Positions 55,868 through 61,004 are shown, counted from the first letter of the stretch. The stretch is DNA of 64,000 nucleotides from Naegleria gruberi (GCA_000004985.1 GG738919.1), one strand, 5' to 3'. Numbers and translations are program-made. The notes: generated from the sequence alone by a model not told the origin.

Positions 55868-56946
55868 TTATGGCTTTAAGCAACAGGTTGGAATTTGGAA
55901 AGTAACTTGTTTGACTTCAACTTGACCAATTGAGCTTTCCTTAAATTCACCATAATGAAATTCTCTCTTATTTGGAAATTGGACGAAATGATTCGAAAGC
56001 CAAGCACTTTCCTCTATGGCAGAAGCAACATTTCCACTAACACTTGTTGGCTTTCCACTCTCAAACTCCAACTTGTTATCAAACTTGTAACAAGTTGGAT
56101 AACCTTCAATACTACCTTTATAGGTAATGACATTTCCGTAATCCTCTTCGGTCAACTCTGAATTCTTGAGTTTGAATAAACGATAGGTAATACTAAAGAA
56201 TTTTGCATTTCCAACAATTAATTTTGCATATCTGGATTGGAAGCAACAATTTCAACACGGTTGACTTCTCTAATAACATCAAAACCAATCTTTCTGCAAG
56301 TATTCAAGAAATCATTGACATAGTAAACAGTTCCAATACATGAACCAAGTATGGAAAGTTTCTCACGAGCTGCTGGATGAATCTTCCTGTCAGAATAAAT
56401 GTCAGAAAAGACAAATTCACCGCCAAACTTTAAAACTTTGTAAACTTGACGAAGGACTTGTTCTTTCTTAGGGGACAAGTTGATGACACAATTGGAAGTG
56501 ATCAAATCGATGGATTCACTGGTAACACCTGGAATTTGATCCAATTCTTCAATTAGACCTTCATGGAATTCAATCTTGGCAATATTCATATTTGCATTCT
56601 TGATTGACTCGATGAATTTTGGAGTAAACTCTCTAGCTTGCTCCACTTGACTCTTGGTCATGTCCACGCCAATAACCTTTCCTTGCTCACCAACAATGAT
56701 CGATGCAAGAAAAACATCCCTTCCAATGCCACTTCCCAAATCAAGAACTGTCAATCCCTTAATACCAAGTGGGACAGCTGAACCACAACCATAAAACTTT
56801 TCATGAACCTCAGCTGGAATCAATCCAAGATACTTTTGAATTAACAAGTGAGGTTTTGAAGCTAGGAAACAACTATTGGAAATCAAAGCTTCATTACTTT
56901 GCTTGTTGGAGTAGTGTTCTTTAATAGAGTCATAGATGGATTCCAT
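55868..56946 (-). CDS. AS3MT: Arsenite (As-III) S-adenosylmethionine methyltransferase. The reading frame is broken by a 1-nt shift in an A4 run near 56222-56225; the C-terminal third continues in ORF 55868..56155.
   Basis: YGCGSAVPLGIKGLTVLDLGSGIGRDVFLASIIVGEQGKVIGVDMTKSQVEQAR (SAM-binding). SNCVINL..KVLKFGGEFVFSDIY. The downstream frame gives GNAKFFSITYRLFK, matching human AS3MT GDCRFVSATFRLFK. Confidence 0.7.
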
Positions 56947-57368
56947 ATTATTATTTTGAAAATTGAGAGAATTGAGATAATTTCACAGAAAGCAATTAAG
57001 ATTTTGTTTTTTGAATTGGTTTTTAGATGAATTGCTGATGAATACAGTAGAATTTATACCAATTTAAATGCACAGAGATGAATAGATGAATGAAATTGCG
57101 TGCGTTCTAAAGCATAGGTCTTCCTGGATGCGTGCGGATTTTGATCGAATAGTTCAATCCAAAGTTTAATTTTGTAAGTAGGGCACTTTATGCGCACGCA
57201 AAACTGAACTGTATTTGATACACGTCTTGTTGAAGATTTGTTTTTCATTAAGATGATACACAACAGTGGATATTATTATTGCATGGTTCAAATTAATTGA
57301 GAATTAAGTTAAATTTGTGAATTGTTTAATAATAGTTTAATAATATAAATGTACAAATTTGAGAGAGC

Positions 57369-58261
57369 TTATTTCCTCTTCTTCTTGTGAATGGCTTCTA
57401 CGAGGGCCATGAAAGCATCACTATTTAAATGTTGTTAAATATTATATTTGAAGAAAATACTTACTTGACATTTTGTCCTGATTTGGCACTAACCTCAAAA
57501 ACTATTTCACCACAACATATTAGATCTATTTCCATAATTATTATAAAACTAAATACATACCTCTATCCACTACACATGAAGTATTTTTACAGAATGCATT
57601 GGCTTCTTCAGTTTTAACCATTCTTTCATCAGCCAAGTCAGCCTTATTACCAACAAGCAATACTGTAATATCATCTTGAGGTGAAGTATTCTTTTCAATA
57701 TTAGTAATCCACTTTTGAACATTTTGGAATGATTCAGAATCTGTCATGTCATAAACAACCAACACTCCAGCACATCCACGATAATAAGTAGCTTGAATAG
57801 TATTATACCTTTCCTGAAAGAAATGTGTCAGAGAAATTCTTTCAAAAACTTACTTGACCTGCTGTATCCCAAATTTGTAACTTTATCATTTGATTGTCAA
57901 TTGTAACATCCTTCTTTTTAAAATCAACACCAATAGTTGCAATATAATTTTCCTGGAATGATCCATCAACCCACTTGATTGCCAAAGAAGTTTTTCCGAC
58001 GCCAGCATCACCTATTGTTGTTATTATTTTCCAATATTTAATTCATTAATCCAATATTATTGTCATTCCAATAATATTATTATTATTATTATTACACAGT
58101 TGATGATGATGATCAGCAACATCAACACACTTACCTAACAGAAGAATTTTGTAGGTAACTTTTTGCTCCACCACTTCACCATGTCCATGAACATTCAACT
58201 TGTTATTTCGGGATGAACCTGATGATGATGATGAATTTGATTTTGAATTATTACAACCCAT
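57369..58261 (-). CDS. Rab-family small GTPase with an N-terminal MGC acylation motif and no C-terminal Cys (ARA6-like), join(57369..57420,57465..57501,57561..57813,57854..58011,58135..58261). Four introns of 123, 40, 59 and 44 nt.
   Basis: Spliced product: MGCNNSKS...YKILLLGDAGVGKTSL...TIGVDF...IWDTAGQERY...YYRG...LLVGNKADL...FEVSAK...DAFMALVEAIHKKKRK*. All donors are GTAAGT/GTATGT and acceptors AATAG/TTCAG. Confidence 0.7.
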
Positions 58262-58787: not shown

Positions 58788-59546
58788 ATGGCACCAAAGA
58801 AAAAACCAATTAACAAGAAACCAGAAAGACCAGACAGAAACAAGCAAACAAAGCTTGAAGTCCTTGCTGAAGATCTTGAAAAACTTGATTTGGAAAACAA
58901 ATTGAGAGAAGAGGAAGAAGATTCTGATGAAGAAGAAGAAATTGTTGTTAGCCGAGTTGAAGCCAAAAAAGTTGATTACTGTGCCGAATGTTCATTCCCA
59001 ATTGAATATTGCGAATTTTCTGATAAATGGCCATTGTGCGAAAAGTGGCTTGAAACTAGATTCCCAGAAAAATTAAAAGAATTAATTGAATTGAGAGAAG
59101 GTGATAAAAACAAGAATAAGAAAATTGATAAAAAAGTCGCCAGAGAAGTCAAGGAAATTGTGGAAGGTACCGAAGAAAAGAGAGTTGCAACCAAATCAAA
59201 TAGAGAATTACTTATTCGTATCGATAAAAGAAGCAAGAGAAAACGTTTGACACTCATTACAGGAATTGAAGCTTTTATGGAGGATGCATTCAGAGGTGAT
59301 GAAAAGTTTTTCAAGGATGTTGTCAAAATTTTCGGAAAGAAATTTGCTTGTGGATGTAGTATTGTGAAAAAACCAGAACTTTCTATTGAAATTCAAGGTA
59401 ATGTTCCTGGCAAAGTTGCCAAGTACTTTACTAAAGAATTGGGTGTTGACATTAATCAAATCTATGTCCTCGAAGATAAGAAAAAGACGAAAGCCTCTGA
59501 TTATGTTTTCGACAGTGATGAAGAGGAAGATGATTCAGATGAATAA
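58788..59546 (+). CDS. DENR: Density-regulated protein (DENR): zinc-binding N-terminal region and a C-terminal SUI1 domain.
   Basis: VDYCAECSFPIEYCEFSDKWPLCEKWL and the SUI1 domain LTLITGIEAFMEDAFRGDEKFFKDVVKIFGKKFACGCSIVKK...IQGNV. ATG at 58788. Confidence 0.85.
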   Translation: MAPKKKPINKKPERPDRNKQTKLEVLAEDLEKLDLENKLREEEEDSDEEEEIVVSRVEAKKVDYCAECSFPIEYCEFSDKWPLCEKWLETRFPEKLKELIELREGDKNKNKKIDKKVAREVKEIVEGTEEKRVATKSNRELLIRIDKRSKRKRLTLITGIEAFMEDAFRGDEKFFKDVVKIFGKKFACGCSIVKKPELSIEIQGNVPGKVAKYFTKELGVDINQIYVLEDKKKTKASDYVFDSDEEEDDSDE

Positions 59547-59710: not shown

Positions 59711-61004
59711 TTATTGTTGCTTGCATTCTTGTTGGCCAGCAGCAGGTTGTTCACCACCTTCTCCTTGTGGTTGAGTAAGACCAGCTTGGATTTGAGTGAG
59801 CATGTCAGCAACTTCTGGGACAGTTGAGAAATCACCTTCCTTTGGCAAAGCAACGTTCAAGAAGTAATCAACAGCGTTTGGAATAATTCTTTCCTTGAGA
59901 ATGTCTCCGATTTCAGCATCAGCTTCCAACAATTCTTGCAAGATCATGTTTTCTTCATTTTCTTCCTTTTGAATTTCTTCATCGAGATTCTTGAAGAAGT
60001 TGAAGAAAGAGTCCTTTGGTTCCTTAACTTGAATAGTTCTGGTTCTGTTTCCAGACTTGTGCTTTTGCTTCTTGGTGGTAACCTTGACAGTCAAATCCTT
60101 ACCTTCAGCCCAGGTAATTTCAGTACCTTCAGAAGTGGCAATATCTTCACTATCGGCTTCTTCGTAATAGTATGACTTGACGAGTTGAGTGTTGGTGAAG
60201 AATGGATTTTCATTGAATTGGAAGATAATTCTGAAACCTGGATTATGCTTGTAATCAATTTCTTCTTCTTCTTCTTCTTCCTTCTTTTCAGCAGATTCTT
60301 CCTTTGGCTTGGCTGGGAATTCTTCCATGACAACATTCTTCAAGAACTTCAAAGCTTCCAAATCATCTTCTTGGATCAATTCAGCCTTGATTTCAGAGTG
60401 GAGCAAAACCTTGTACCAGAAATCTGGAACACCCTTCAAATCTTCAGTCTTTTCAGTGGTAACTTCGGACAAAGCAACAGTAGACAATTCTTCAGAGGTA
60501 GCTTCAACTTCACCAGTAACAATTTCGTTTCTTCTAATAATAACTGGAGCATAGAGAGCAGCATACTTTTCTCTGAGCTTCAAGTATTCTTCTTCGAATT
60601 GCTTTTCCAAATCAGAGTACTTTTGTTGGAGGTTCTTCAAAACACCAATAACCTTTTGAGTCTTGGCTGGATATTCAGCAAGTTGCTTCTTTTCAATCTT
60701 TTCGAGTTCTTCTGGGGTAGCCTTTCTCATGAGCATTGGGTGCTATTATTATTGTTAGATTAATTGTTGTTGTCAATAGTTATAAAGTACATCAGCAGAG
60801 AGGGAATGTTCAATAATATCAAGTTGTTTCCACATCATCGTCGGTTAAAATTATTATTATTAATAAATTTCATAGATTAACTTCCTCAACATTCTAACCA
60901 GCAAAACTACTTACACCATACATTTCTTCTTCGATATCTTCTTCTTCATCGAAGTCTTCTTCTTCAGCAGGAGCAAAGTTAAAGTTGAACTTTTGTGGAG
61001 GCAT
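59711..61004 (-). CDS. NAP1: Nucleosome assembly protein 1, join(59711..60742,60915..61004) with a 172-nt intron. C-terminal CKQQ CaaX box.
   Basis: Exon 1 MPPQKFNFNFAPAEEEDFDEEEDIEEEMYG|GTAAGT. Acceptor AATAATAG|CAC is in frame with ORF 59711..60736. NAP signatures VIGVLKNLQ..LE..F..EY..LREKY, DFWYKVL, PGFRIIFQFNENPFFTN. Ends ...ECKQQ. Confidence 0.8.

What the first reader, a model, noticed from the sequence alone, without database searches (positions are those of the whole stretch)
57369..58261. Intron-rich Rab GTPase with an N-terminal MGC acylation signal and no C-terminal prenylation cysteines (ARA6-like)
The five-exon model includes 37-nt and 52-nt exons. It yields a complete Rab with G1-G5 motifs, an N-terminus MGCNNSKS (myristoylation consensus MGxxxS plus Cys3 for palmitoylation) and a C-terminus ..HKKKRK with no CC/CXC. 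That membrane-anchoring mode is known from plant ARA6/RabF1 and is rare elsewhere. It is also the most intron-dense gene in an otherwise intron-poor region.
Basis: partly seen in the sequence, partly recalled or inferred. Interest (0 to 1): 0.55.

Follow-up and report, generated by a model that had tools for sequence, protein, structure and literature searches.

The report
Naegleria Rab GTPase anchored by N-terminal lipids
This is a real, already annotated Naegleria gruberi Rab GTPase gene (RabX4) that has swapped the usual C-terminal prenyl anchor for an N-terminal myristoyl/palmitoyl signal, apparently independently of the plant protein ARA6; no experiment has tested the lipidation.

Summary
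On the minus strand, 58261-57369, a five-exon gene (127/158/253/37/52 nt, four GT-AG introns) encodes a 208-aa protein. It is 100% identical to N. gruberi XP_002670122.1, catalogued as "RabX4, divergent lineage-specific Rab" by Herman et al. 2021, who left the model uncorrected.

- **Rab features:** G1-G5 and the RabF motifs are intact.
- **Termini:** It starts MGCNNSK (myristoylation pattern plus Cys3) and ends HKKKRK with no cysteine.
- **Conservation:** Both termini are conserved in all six clade members: N. fowleri, Willaertia, Acrasis and two metagenomic proteins, one of them intronless.
- **Exon support:** The 37-nt exon is conserved in N. fowleri, and Willaertia encodes that junction without an intron.
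- **No hidden tail:** I found no credible prenylation exon in the 422 nt before the next gene.
- **Structure:** AlphaFold gives a disordered N-terminal ~30 residues and a G domain whose last helix runs to the C-terminus, so there is no hypervariable tail.

It is ARA6-like in anchoring mode only. G-domain identity is 48-51% to Rab1/35/8 against 38-39% to RABF1, and it never grouped with Rab5/RABF1 in 500 bootstraps. The arrangement is not very rare: Amoebozoa have a separate MGC-type Rab1-like group. Lipidation, localisation and function remain inferred.

The parts
57369..58261 (-). Complete coding region (ATG to TAA) of N. gruberi RabX4 / XP_002670122.1: five exons, 208 aa
   Evidence: model; 100% identity and coverage to the annotated protein; curated table lists it without correction
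58135..58261 (-). Exon 1 (127 nt): Met1 to the first base of the Gly43 codon. It holds the acylation motif and the linker.
   Evidence: In-frame stop 16 codons upstream and no upstream ATG.
58241..58261 (-). Codons for MGCNNSK: predicted N-myristoylation at Gly2 (58256-58258) and S-palmitoylation at Cys3 (58253-58255)
   Evidence: The pattern MG-{EDRKHPFYW}-x2-[STAGCN]-{P} is met in all six clade members, with Cys at position 3-5. Lipidation itself is not tested.
58160..58252 (-). Ser/Asn-rich linker, residues 4-34, predicted disordered. It tethers the G domain to the lipidated N-terminus.
   Evidence: AlphaFold2 pLDDT is below 50 for residues 1-3, 6-8 and 10-30, and the first strand starts at residue 35. 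Canonical Rab1/35/8 lack this extension.
58012..58134 (-). Intron 1 (123 nt, GTAAGT..TAG), phase 1 in Gly43
   Evidence: The N. fowleri intron lies 9 nt further 3'.
57854..58011 (-). Exon 2 (158 nt): P-loop GDAGVGKT, switch I, RabF1 IGVDF, RabF2 KLQIW, DTAGQ
57814..57853 (-). Intron 2 (40 nt, GTAAGT..CAG), phase 0 after Gln95
57561..57813 (-). Exon 3 (253 nt): switch II (ERYNTIQ), YYRGC, VVYDMT, NKAD
57502..57560 (-). Intron 3 (59 nt, GTATGT..TAG), phase 1. It contains an alternative in-frame acceptor 24 nt upstream of the one used; that exon would start at 57525.
   Evidence: The position and phase are conserved in N. fowleri. Willaertia has no intron here and encodes the junction contiguously, which supports the downstream acceptor.
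57465..57501 (-). Exon 4 (37-nt micro-exon): VFEVSAKSGQNV, containing the G5 SAK motif
   Evidence: N. fowleri has an exon of exactly 37 nt at the same place.
57421..57464 (-). Intron 4 (44 nt, GTAAGT..TAG), phase 2
   Evidence: The position and phase are conserved in N. fowleri and Willaertia magna.
57369..57420 (-). Exon 5 (52 nt): the end of helix alpha5 (DAFMALVEAIH), the polybasic KKKRK (57372-57386) and the TAA stop (57369-57371). There is no cysteine.
   Evidence: The AlphaFold2 helix 191-207 runs to the C-terminus. Cys-less, basic ends occur in N. fowleri, Willaertia and metagenome protein P0029.
58788..59546 (+). Neighbouring DENR/SUI1 gene, divergent from RabX4. With NAP (59711-60736, minus strand) it forms a microsynteny block shared with N. 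fowleri.
   Evidence: Pfam; N. fowleri locus L001 gene table
56218..56946 (-). Next gene downstream (methyltransferase). It limits the 3' space for RabX4 to 422 nt.

Best explanation
The locus encodes a GTPase-competent Rab of a Heterolobosea-specific lineage, RabX4. Its membrane tether has moved from the C-terminus to the N-terminus.

Proposed mechanism:
1. After removal of Met1, N-myristoyltransferase acylates Gly2.
2. A DHHC palmitoyltransferase then S-acylates Cys3, which makes membrane binding stable.
3. A disordered, Ser/Asn-rich linker of about 30 residues plays the spacer role that the C-terminal hypervariable region plays in ordinary Rabs.
4. The G domain ends with helix alpha5. In Naegleria and Willaertia this helix finishes in a KKKRK-type basic patch that could add electrostatic affinity for acidic lipids.

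With neither prenyl groups nor a hypervariable tail, the protein cannot be a REP/RabGGTase substrate and GDI cannot extract it. Its membrane residence would then be set by the palmitoylation cycle, while GEFs and GAPs still control its GTP state. The most likely site of action is the plasma membrane or the endocytic/recycling interface.

The arrangement appears to have arisen independently of plant ARA6 and Plasmodium Rab5b, from a Rab1/8/35-like ancestor.

Shown here: the gene model, the motifs, their conservation, the fold prediction and the phylogenetic exclusion from the Rab5 clade. Inferred: the lipidation itself, GDI independence, localisation and pathway.
For: - **Model and identity:**
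- **Motifs:** G1-G5 intact, catalytic Gln95 present, RabF1 and RabF2 exact.
- **Start codon:** in-frame upstream stops and no upstream ATG at all five loci examined.
- **Conserved termini:** the MG+Cys N-terminus and the Cys-less C-terminus occur in all six clade members. One of them has an intronless uninterrupted ORF (L004).
- **Exclusive anchors:** 47 proteins with the N-terminal signal only, 154 with C-terminal Cys only, none with both, among 231 hits.
- **Splice support:** the last two introns are conserved in N. fowleri, the last one also in Willaertia, and Willaertia encodes the exon 3/4 junction contiguously.
- **Orthology:** NAP-DENR-Rab microsynteny with N. fowleri.
- **Structure:** AlphaFold2 gives residues 1-30 disordered and helix 191-207 running to the end.
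- **Phylogeny:** the clade has 99.8% bootstrap, groups with Rab5/RABF1 in 0/500 replicates, and has 48-51% identity to Rab1/35/8 against 38-39% to RABF1.
- **Curation:** expert curation kept the model and called it a divergent lineage-specific Rab.
- **Functional precedent:** in ARA6, G2A makes the protein cytosolic and C3S mislocalises it. PfRab5B needs Gly2 for myristoylation (PMC3912013; PMC3871812).
Against: - There is no experimental or transcript-level evidence for this gene. No RNA-derived contig encoding the exact protein is on record (one search lists one genomic contig only).
- Myristoylation and palmitoylation were judged from a simple consensus pattern. No dedicated predictor was available.
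- The polybasic end is absent in Acrasis and in metagenome protein P0006, so it is not a clade-wide feature.
- The tree is neighbour-joining on 162 columns with limited sampling. The sister group is unresolved (Rab35, 30% support).
- Localisation and pathway are extrapolated from analogues.
Confidence: 0.75

Rival explanations
1. Annotation artefact: the true transcript carries a further 3' exon, or a different last exon, that encodes a CC/CXC/CaaX prenylation tail. On this reading the Cys-less end is a truncated model.
For: Only gene prediction supports the 3' end in N. gruberi. Micro-exons (37 and 52 nt) are error-prone. A chance 'HCCVSS*' reading frame lies about 110 nt downstream of the stop.
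Against: - Five independently predicted relatives end at the same place without Cys. One is an intronless uninterrupted ORF.
- I enumerated every GT donor in exon 5, and skipping of exon 5, against every AG acceptor in the 422 nt before the next gene. This gave 18 combinations. None yields CC, CXC, CCXX or CaaX, and all delete part of helix alpha5.
- The HCCVSS frame has no upstream acceptor without stops.
- The intron before the last exon is conserved in three genera.
- The manual re-annotation left the model unchanged.
Confidence: 0.03
2. True ARA6/RABF1 orthologue: the gene descends from the same ancient N-acylated Rab5 paralogue as plant ARA6 and alveolate Rab5b.
For: It has the same MGCxxS start, an N-terminal extension of similar length and a truncated C-terminus. 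It also has 'GQERY' in switch II, as Rab5 and ARA6 do.
Against: - Rab5A+RABF1 form a 100% clade that excludes it, and the grouping of this clade with Rab5/RABF1 appears in 0/500 bootstraps (0/500 again with N. gruberi Rab22 added).
- G-domain identity is 38-39% to RABF1 and 41% to Rab5A, against 48-51% to Rab1/35/8.
- Switch I is TIGVDF (Rab1-type), not TxGA(A/S)F.
- No Rab5/RABF protein is among the top 120 hits of either search.
Confidence: 0.02
3. The N-terminal motif is not used. The protein would then be a soluble or otherwise recruited Rab-like GTPase, for instance bound to membranes only through partners or the basic C-terminus, as in the Cys-less RABL proteins.
For: There is no lipidation evidence. 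Consensus-pattern matches are known to give false positives. Cys-less Rab-like proteins that are not lipidated do exist (my own knowledge of RABL2/IFT27-type proteins).
Against: Gly2 is invariant, and a Cys is kept at position 3-5 even though its exact place shifts. This is the signature of selection on the modification rather than on the sequence. The N-terminal signal and C-terminal Cys are perfectly exclusive across 231 relatives. The same motif is functionally required in ARA6 and PfRab5B.
Confidence: 0.07
4. Shared ancient paralogue: the heterolobosean clade and the amoebozoan MGC-type Rab1-like proteins descend from one N-acylated Rab (vertical descent or lateral transfer). The heterolobosean branch would simply be fast-evolving. 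This rival concerns the origin only. The mechanism is the same as in the best explanation.
For: The architecture is identical: MGC start, a linker of about 30-40 residues and a C-terminus cut right after alpha5. The linkers share a short hydrophobic-x-Val motif (KLNVHG, GVNVST, SLNVSG, ALKVNA, ISVNK). In the profile search, amoebozoan-type proteins are the best single-domain hits outside the clade.
Against: On G-domain columns the two groups join in only 0.2% of bootstraps. Identity to the MGC group (46-50%) is no higher than to ordinary Rab1/35. The extra profile score may come from the MGC start itself.
Confidence: 0.13

Closest known systems
ARA6 / RABF1 (land plants, charophytes) and related alveolate Rab5b (Plasmodium, Perkinsus)
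   Same: These are Rab GTPases starting MGCxxS, myristoylated at Gly2 and palmitoylated at Cys3. They have a long N-terminal extension and no C-terminal Cys or hypervariable tail. Membrane binding depends on Gly2 (PMC3912013, PMC3871812; alignment).
   Different: They are Rab5-derived (TxGA(A/S)F switch I, activated by VPS9-type GEFs). The Naegleria protein groups outside Rab5 (0/500 bootstraps) and has only 38-39% identity to them. ARA6 ends in a Pro-rich stub (..RLPRPxxSS), not a Lys/Arg patch.
Rab35 / Rab1 / Rab8 (canonical prenylated Rabs)
   Same: They have the most similar G domains: 48-51% identity, PDB scores of 164.8 bits for Rab1B, 162.4 for Rab35 and 150.9 for Rab8A. RabF1 IGVDF and RabF2 KLQIW are exact. 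From my own knowledge, Rab35 also has a C-terminal polybasic stretch used for plasma-membrane targeting.
   Different: They have a short N-terminus and a C-terminal hypervariable region of about 30 residues ending in CC, CXC or CaaX. They depend on REP, GGTase-II and GDI. Specific orthology to any one of them is not supported (30% bootstrap with Rab35). N. gruberi has its own canonical Rab1 and Rab8.
Amoebozoan MGC-type Rab1-like proteins (Nolandella, Arcella, Difflugia, Dermamoeba, Trichosphaerium transcriptomes, plus many metagenome contigs); I found no published name for them
   Same: Same architecture: MGC(G/N)xSK start, a linker of about 35 residues, and an end right after alpha5 without Cys.
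   Different: Their G domains look much closer to canonical Rab1/35 by eye in alignment A2, and their ends are acidic (..KEKLEE). They do not group with the heterolobosean clade (0.2% bootstrap).
SH4-type dual acylation signals of Src-family kinases and G-alpha-i subunits
   Same: The N-terminal MGC...S/K motif, read by N-myristoyltransferase and then by a palmitoyltransferase, usually gives plasma-membrane targeting (my own knowledge).
   Different: These are unrelated proteins. Only the targeting peptide logic is shared.
N. gruberi RabX5 (XP_002681187.1) and RabX6 (XP_002679007.1)
   Same: They are Cys-less Rabs of the same genome with acylatable N-termini (MGNCNHHG..., MCCGGESD...), also called divergent and lineage-specific.
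   Different: There is no supported relationship to RabX4 (at most 9% bootstrap; 44% and 39% identity). Their N-terminal extensions are much longer.

Membership tests
Rab family (Ras superfamily) | Ras-type G domain with intact G1-G5 nucleotide-binding motifs | tested here: met
   Pfam PF00071 matches residues 38-203 at E=4.8e-58. The motifs GDAGVGKT, T68, DTAGQ, NKAD and SAK were read directly.
Rab family (Ras superfamily) | Rab-specific RabF1-F5 motifs (Pereira-Leal and Seabra 2000: IGVDF, KLQIW, RFRSIT, YYRGA, LVYDIT) | tested here: met
   IGVDF and KLQIW are exact. YYRGC matches 4/5, VVYDMT 4/6 and RYNTIQ 3/6. All the best PDB and database hits are Rabs. Herman et al. 2021 curated it as a Rab.
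Rab family (Ras superfamily) | C-terminal Cys motif (CC, CXC, CCXX, CaaX) for geranylgeranylation, preceded by a hypervariable region | tested here: not met
   The protein ends ...EAIHKKKRK* with no Cys in the last 30 residues. The alpha5 helix runs to the end. No hidden exon was found. The same exception is accepted for ARA6 and PfRab5B, so it does not exclude the protein from the Rab family.
ARA6 / RABF1 group | N-terminal MGCxxS dual-acylation motif together with absence of C-terminal Cys | tested here: met
   MGCNNS... start and a Cys-less end, conserved in six clade members
ARA6 / RABF1 group | Phylogenetic position within or next to Rab5 (RABF), with Rab5-type switch I TxGA(A/S)F | tested here: not met
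   0/500 bootstraps with Rab5A+RABF1, which themselves form a 100% clade. Identity is 38-39%. Switch I is TIGVDF.
ARA6 / RABF1 group | Demonstrated myristoylation and palmitoylation, endosome/plasma-membrane localisation, activation by a VPS9-domain GEF | not testable with these tools
   This needs wet-lab work. Only precedents were read.
Rab1 / Rab35 / Rab8 subfamilies | Specific orthology (supported sister relationship) to one canonical subfamily | tested here: inconclusive
   These are its nearest relatives by score and identity. The neighbour-joining sister is Rab35 with only 30% support. The curated label is 'divergent lineage-specific'.
N-myristoyltransferase substrates | Met-Gly start with G-{EDRKHPFYW}-x2-[STAGCN]-{P} (PROSITE PS00008 logic), and a true translation start at that Met | tested here: met
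   The pattern is met in 6/6 clade members. At all five loci an in-frame stop lies upstream and there is no upstream ATG. Ser6/Lys7, favoured by NMT (my own knowledge), are present in N. gruberi.
N-myristoyltransferase substrates | Actual covalent myristate on Gly2 and palmitate on Cys3 | not testable with these tools
   No proteomic data or dedicated predictor was available.
Amoebozoan MGC-type Rab1-like group | Common descent with that group (shared clade on G-domain columns) | tested here: not met
   The joint clade appears in 0.2% of 500 bootstraps. The shared architecture and a linker motif keep the question open.

The most novel reading that the evidence does not exclude
N-terminal acylation in place of prenylation may be a recurrent or ancient alternative design for Rab1-like GTPases in amoeboid protists. 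The heterolobosean RabX4 clade and the amoebozoan MGC-Rab1-like group would then represent one widespread, unnamed Rab paralogue with a GDI-independent, palmitoylation-driven membrane cycle. The support is their shared architecture and the hydrophobic-x-Val linker motif. In Naegleria this design would have been elaborated further (RabX5, RabX6).
Probability: 0.13. Interest if true: 0.6.

Novelty: new member of a known kind. Interest (0 to 1): 0.4.

Why it matters
Rab GTPases are textbook examples of proteins whose membrane cycle depends on C-terminal geranylgeranylation, REP and GDI. ARA6 and Plasmodium Rab5b were treated as the exceptions, and both come from Rab5.

A conserved heterolobosean Rab from a different part of the Rab tree with the same anchor swap changes that picture. 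So do an amoebozoan group and two further Naegleria paralogues. Together they suggest that moving the tether to the N-terminus is a repeatable evolutionary solution, not a plant oddity.

This gives independent natural experiments for two questions. What does a Rab gain by escaping GDI control? How far does the anchor, rather than the G domain, decide where a Rab works?

The practical value is modest. The gene is already annotated, the function is unknown, and Naegleria genetics is still limited.

Tried and rejected
1. **Alternative acceptor.** An in-frame acceptor lies 24 nt upstream of exon 4 and would insert DLICCGEI. I rejected it because Willaertia encodes the junction without an intron and N. 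fowleri and Acrasis have the same protein length there.
2. **Hidden 3' prenylation exon.** I tested 18 donor/acceptor combinations. None gave a Rab-type Cys motif.
3. **Downstream 'HCCVSS*' frame (about 57250-57270).** It has no usable acceptor and there are stops in between.
4. **Exhaustive HMMER search of 1.84 billion representatives with the clade profile.** Tandem or fused Rab predictions dominated the top hits. The clade members themselves are hidden inside 50%-identity clusters, so the search added nothing.
5. **Transcript evidence.** The exact protein is on record only on the genomic contig, so I could not check splice junctions with RNA.
6. **A RabX4+RabX5+RabX6 clade.** It is not supported (at most 9% bootstrap).
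7. **Literature.** Elias et al. 2012 (PMC3383260), the key Rab phylogeny, is not held. Searches for a description of N-acylated Rab1-like proteins in Naegleria, Acrasis or Amoebozoa found none. Zahonova et al. 2018 list only the Rab5-related case.
8. **Tree method.** No maximum-likelihood tree program was available. I used neighbour-joining with Kimura-corrected distances and 500 bootstraps.

I checked them against PDB chains. For ARA6 I checked against the database, where it was 95% identical to the representative of the Brassicaceae RABF1 cluster. Only database RABF1 sequences went into the trees.

Full report
**What is in the sequence**

The window is Naegleria gruberi DNA with about 34% G+C. 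The feature lies on the minus strand. From the ATG at 58261 to the TAA ending at 57369, five exons of 127, 158, 253, 37 and 52 nt are joined through four GT..AG introns of 123, 40, 59 and 44 nt. The 627-nt CDS gives a 208-aa protein, MGCNNSKS...EAIHKKKRK*.

The protein is 100% identical over its full length to XP_002670122.1/EFC37378.1, 'rab family small GTPase [Naegleria gruberi]'. In the manually curated Ras-superfamily table of Herman et al. 2021 (PMC8296547, Table S8) this accession has no corrected model. [quoted passage not shown] The gene is therefore real and already catalogued.

**It is a functional-looking Rab**

Pfam Ras (PF00071) covers residues 38-203 at E=4.8e-58. GDAGVGKT, T68, DTAGQ with the catalytic Gln95, NKAD and SAK are all present. 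RabF1 (IGVDF) and RabF2 (KLQIW) are exact and RabF3-5 are recognisable. The best solved structures are Rab1B (164.8 bits), Rab35 (162.4), Rab10 (158.3) and Rab8A (150.9). Rab5B follows at 150.0 and Rab5A at 142.6.

**The termini**

- The start MGCNNSK fits the N-myristoylation pattern anchored at Gly2, and Cys3 is available for palmitoylation. The ATG is the first after an in-frame stop 16 codons upstream.
- The protein has no cysteine after residue 175.
- AlphaFold2 (mean pLDDT 79, 30-sequence alignment) gives pLDDT below 50 for residues 1-30 and the first strand at residue 35. The last helix spans 191-207, so it runs to the C-terminus. There is no hypervariable tail.
- In an alignment with canonical Rab1/35/8, the N-acylated proteins carry 30-40 extra residues at the N-terminus. 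They lack the roughly 30-residue tail that carries the Cys motif in the canonical proteins.

**Conservation and chance**

A profile of the clade retrieves only six members among 5.8 billion proteins, at 373-314 bits. After a few tandem or fused Rab predictions, the single-domain hits score 232 bits or less. The six are:
- N. gruberi
- N. fowleri (85% identity)
- Willaertia magna (78% over the full alignment; 83% over the aligned 84% of the query)
- Acrasis kona (56%)
- two metagenome proteins

All six start MG, have a Cys at position 3, 4 or 5, match the myristoylation pattern and have no Cys in the last 30 residues. The Cys moves while Gly2 stays fixed. That is what selection on the modification, rather than on the sequence, would produce.

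Among the 231 nearest database proteins, the N-terminal signal and a C-terminal Cys never occur together: 47 have only the first, 154 only the second.

At all five loci examined the ATG follows an in-frame stop with no upstream ATG. One metagenomic member is an intronless, uninterrupted ORF running from MGNNCGG to FSTN* (L004).

**The gene model and the refutation test**

- The last two N. gruberi introns (codon 180 phase 1 and codon 192 phase 2) are at identical positions and phases in N. fowleri, which also has an exon of exactly 37 nt.
- Willaertia shares the last intron. It has none at the exon 3/4 junction, so it encodes ...CLIDKCFEVSAK... contiguously. This settles the choice between the two in-frame acceptors of intron 3.
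- The NAP-DENR-Rab gene order is shared with N. fowleri.
- Downstream, the next gene (a methyltransferase) starts 422 nt after the stop.
- I combined every GT in exon 5, and skipping of exon 5, with every AG in that space. This gave 18 products. None ends in CC, CXC, CCXX or CaaX, and all would destroy helix alpha5.

The hidden-exon rival is therefore very unlikely. RNA evidence for this gene was not available to me.

**Relationship to ARA6**

I recalled the ARA6 sequence from memory and confirmed it against the database, where it was 95% identical to the representative of the Brassicaceae RABF1 cluster. Only database RABF1 sequences were used afterwards. Human Rab5A, Rab7A and Rab11A were checked against PDB chains.

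On 162 G-domain columns the N. gruberi protein is 48-51% identical to Rab1, Rab35 and Rab8. It is 41% identical to Rab5A and 38-39% to RABF1.

In a neighbour-joining tree with 500 bootstraps:
- the heterolobosean clade has 99.8% support;
- Rab5A+RABF1 has 100% support;
- the two join in 0 replicates;
- the nominal sister is Rab35, at only 30%.

Adding N. gruberi Rab22, Rab18, Rab11, RabX1, RabX5 and RabX6 from the curated table does not change this. Switch I is TIGVDF, not the TxGA(A/S)F of Rab5 and ARA6.

The protein works like ARA6 in how it would attach to membranes, but it is not a member of the ARA6/Rab5 family. The resemblance appears to be convergent.

**How it most likely works**

The motifs, their conservation, the fold prediction and the exclusion from Rab5 are shown here. 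The steps below are inferred from established knowledge of NMT and DHHC enzymes, and from ARA6 and PfRab5B. In those proteins G2A abolishes membrane binding and C3S changes targeting (PMC3912013, PMC3871812).

1. Gly2 is myristoylated and Cys3 is palmitoylated.
2. The disordered linker acts as the spacer.
3. The G domain cycles normally.
4. With no prenyl groups and no tail, REP/GGTase-II and GDI cannot act on the protein, so palmitate turnover governs its membrane residence.

The KKKRK end in Naegleria, Willaertia and P0029 could add affinity for acidic lipids and points to the plasma membrane or endocytic interface. It is missing in Acrasis and P0006, so it is not a core feature. My confidence in the overall mechanism is about 0.75. 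My confidence in the localisation guess is much lower.

A second group of MGC-type, Cys-less Rab1-like proteins is common in environmental assemblies. It also occurs in transcriptomes of Nolandella, Arcella, Difflugia, Dermamoeba and Trichosphaerium, all Amoebozoa.

This group does not cluster with the heterolobosean clade on G-domain columns (0.2%). It does share the architecture and a short hydrophobic-x-Val motif in the linker, so common ancestry is not excluded.

N. gruberi also has RabX5 (MGNCNHHG...) and RabX6 (MCCGGESD...), both Cys-less and not demonstrably related to RabX4.

**Novelty**

The gene is known. The anchor type is known from ARA6 and Rab5b. In the literature I could search, the only N-acylated Rab listed is the Rab5-related one (Zahonova et al. 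2018). The Naegleria supplement does not comment on the termini of RabX4-6.

I rate this as a new member of a known kind: a convergent instance in a Rab1/8/35-like lineage. Interest is moderate (0.4).

Noticed in passing
Not in the window; N. gruberi XP_002681187.1 (RabX5) and XP_002679007.1 (RabX6), from PMC8296547 Table S8: Two more N. gruberi Rabs lack C-terminal cysteines and start with acylatable residues: MGNCNHHG... ending ...LVDRLR, and MCCGGESD... ending ...EKNEER. The neighbour-joining tree gives no support for a clade with RabX4 (at most 9%). Naegleria may therefore have swapped Rab anchors several times.
   Followed up: partly
Database proteins P0012, P0019, P0023, P0044, P0049, P0068, P0143, P0150, P0155 and others: There is a large group of Rab1-like proteins with an MGC(G/N)xSK start, a linker of about 35 residues and a Cys-less acidic end (..KEKLEE). 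It occurs in the Amoebozoa Nolandella, Arcella, Difflugia, Dermamoeba and Trichosphaerium, and in many short environmental contigs. I found no published name for it.
   Followed up: partly
Alignment A2, columns about 20-35; window about 58190-58200 (KLNV): The otherwise unconserved N-terminal linkers of the heterolobosean and amoebozoan N-acylated Rabs share a short hydrophobic-x-Val motif about 15-25 residues from the N-terminus (KLNVHG, GVNVST, SLNVSG, ALKVNA, ISVNK). AlphaFold2 gives it low confidence. Its meaning is unknown.
   Followed up: no
Window 58134/58012 and 57853/57814, compared with L001 3139-3311 and 3450-3561: Introns 1 and 2 of N. gruberi and N. fowleri lie 9 and 10 nt apart in the coding sequence (Gly43 against Gly47, both phase 1; after Gln95 against within Thr of WDT). 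N. fowleri has one extra intron. This is either intron sliding or independent loss and gain. Acrasis introns are all at other positions.
   Followed up: partly
Window 57502-57525 (minus strand): A second in-frame AG acceptor lies 24 nt upstream of exon 4. It would insert DLICCGEI into the loop before the G5 motif. Comparative evidence favours the downstream site, but minor alternative splicing cannot be excluded.
   Followed up: yes
Window about 57250-57270 (minus strand): A short frame reading ...HCCVSS* (a CCXXX-like string) sits about 110 nt downstream of the stop codon. It has no upstream acceptor free of stops and looks like chance.
   Followed up: yes
Window 58788-59546 (+) and 59711-60736 (-); L001 180-2440: The DENR/SUI1 and NAP genes flank RabX4 in the same relative order and orientation in N. 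gruberi and N. fowleri. The downstream neighbour differs: a methyltransferase at 56218-56946 in N. gruberi, and an RCC1-BTB protein in N. fowleri.
   Followed up: yes
Database protein P0163 (XP_049851497.1, annotated Schistocerca gregaria, 206-kb contig): A protein annotated as a desert-locust gene falls inside the amoebozoan MGC-type Rab group. The contig may come from an amoebozoan associate or contaminant of the locust sample rather than from the insect. This is speculation and I did not check it.
   Followed up: no
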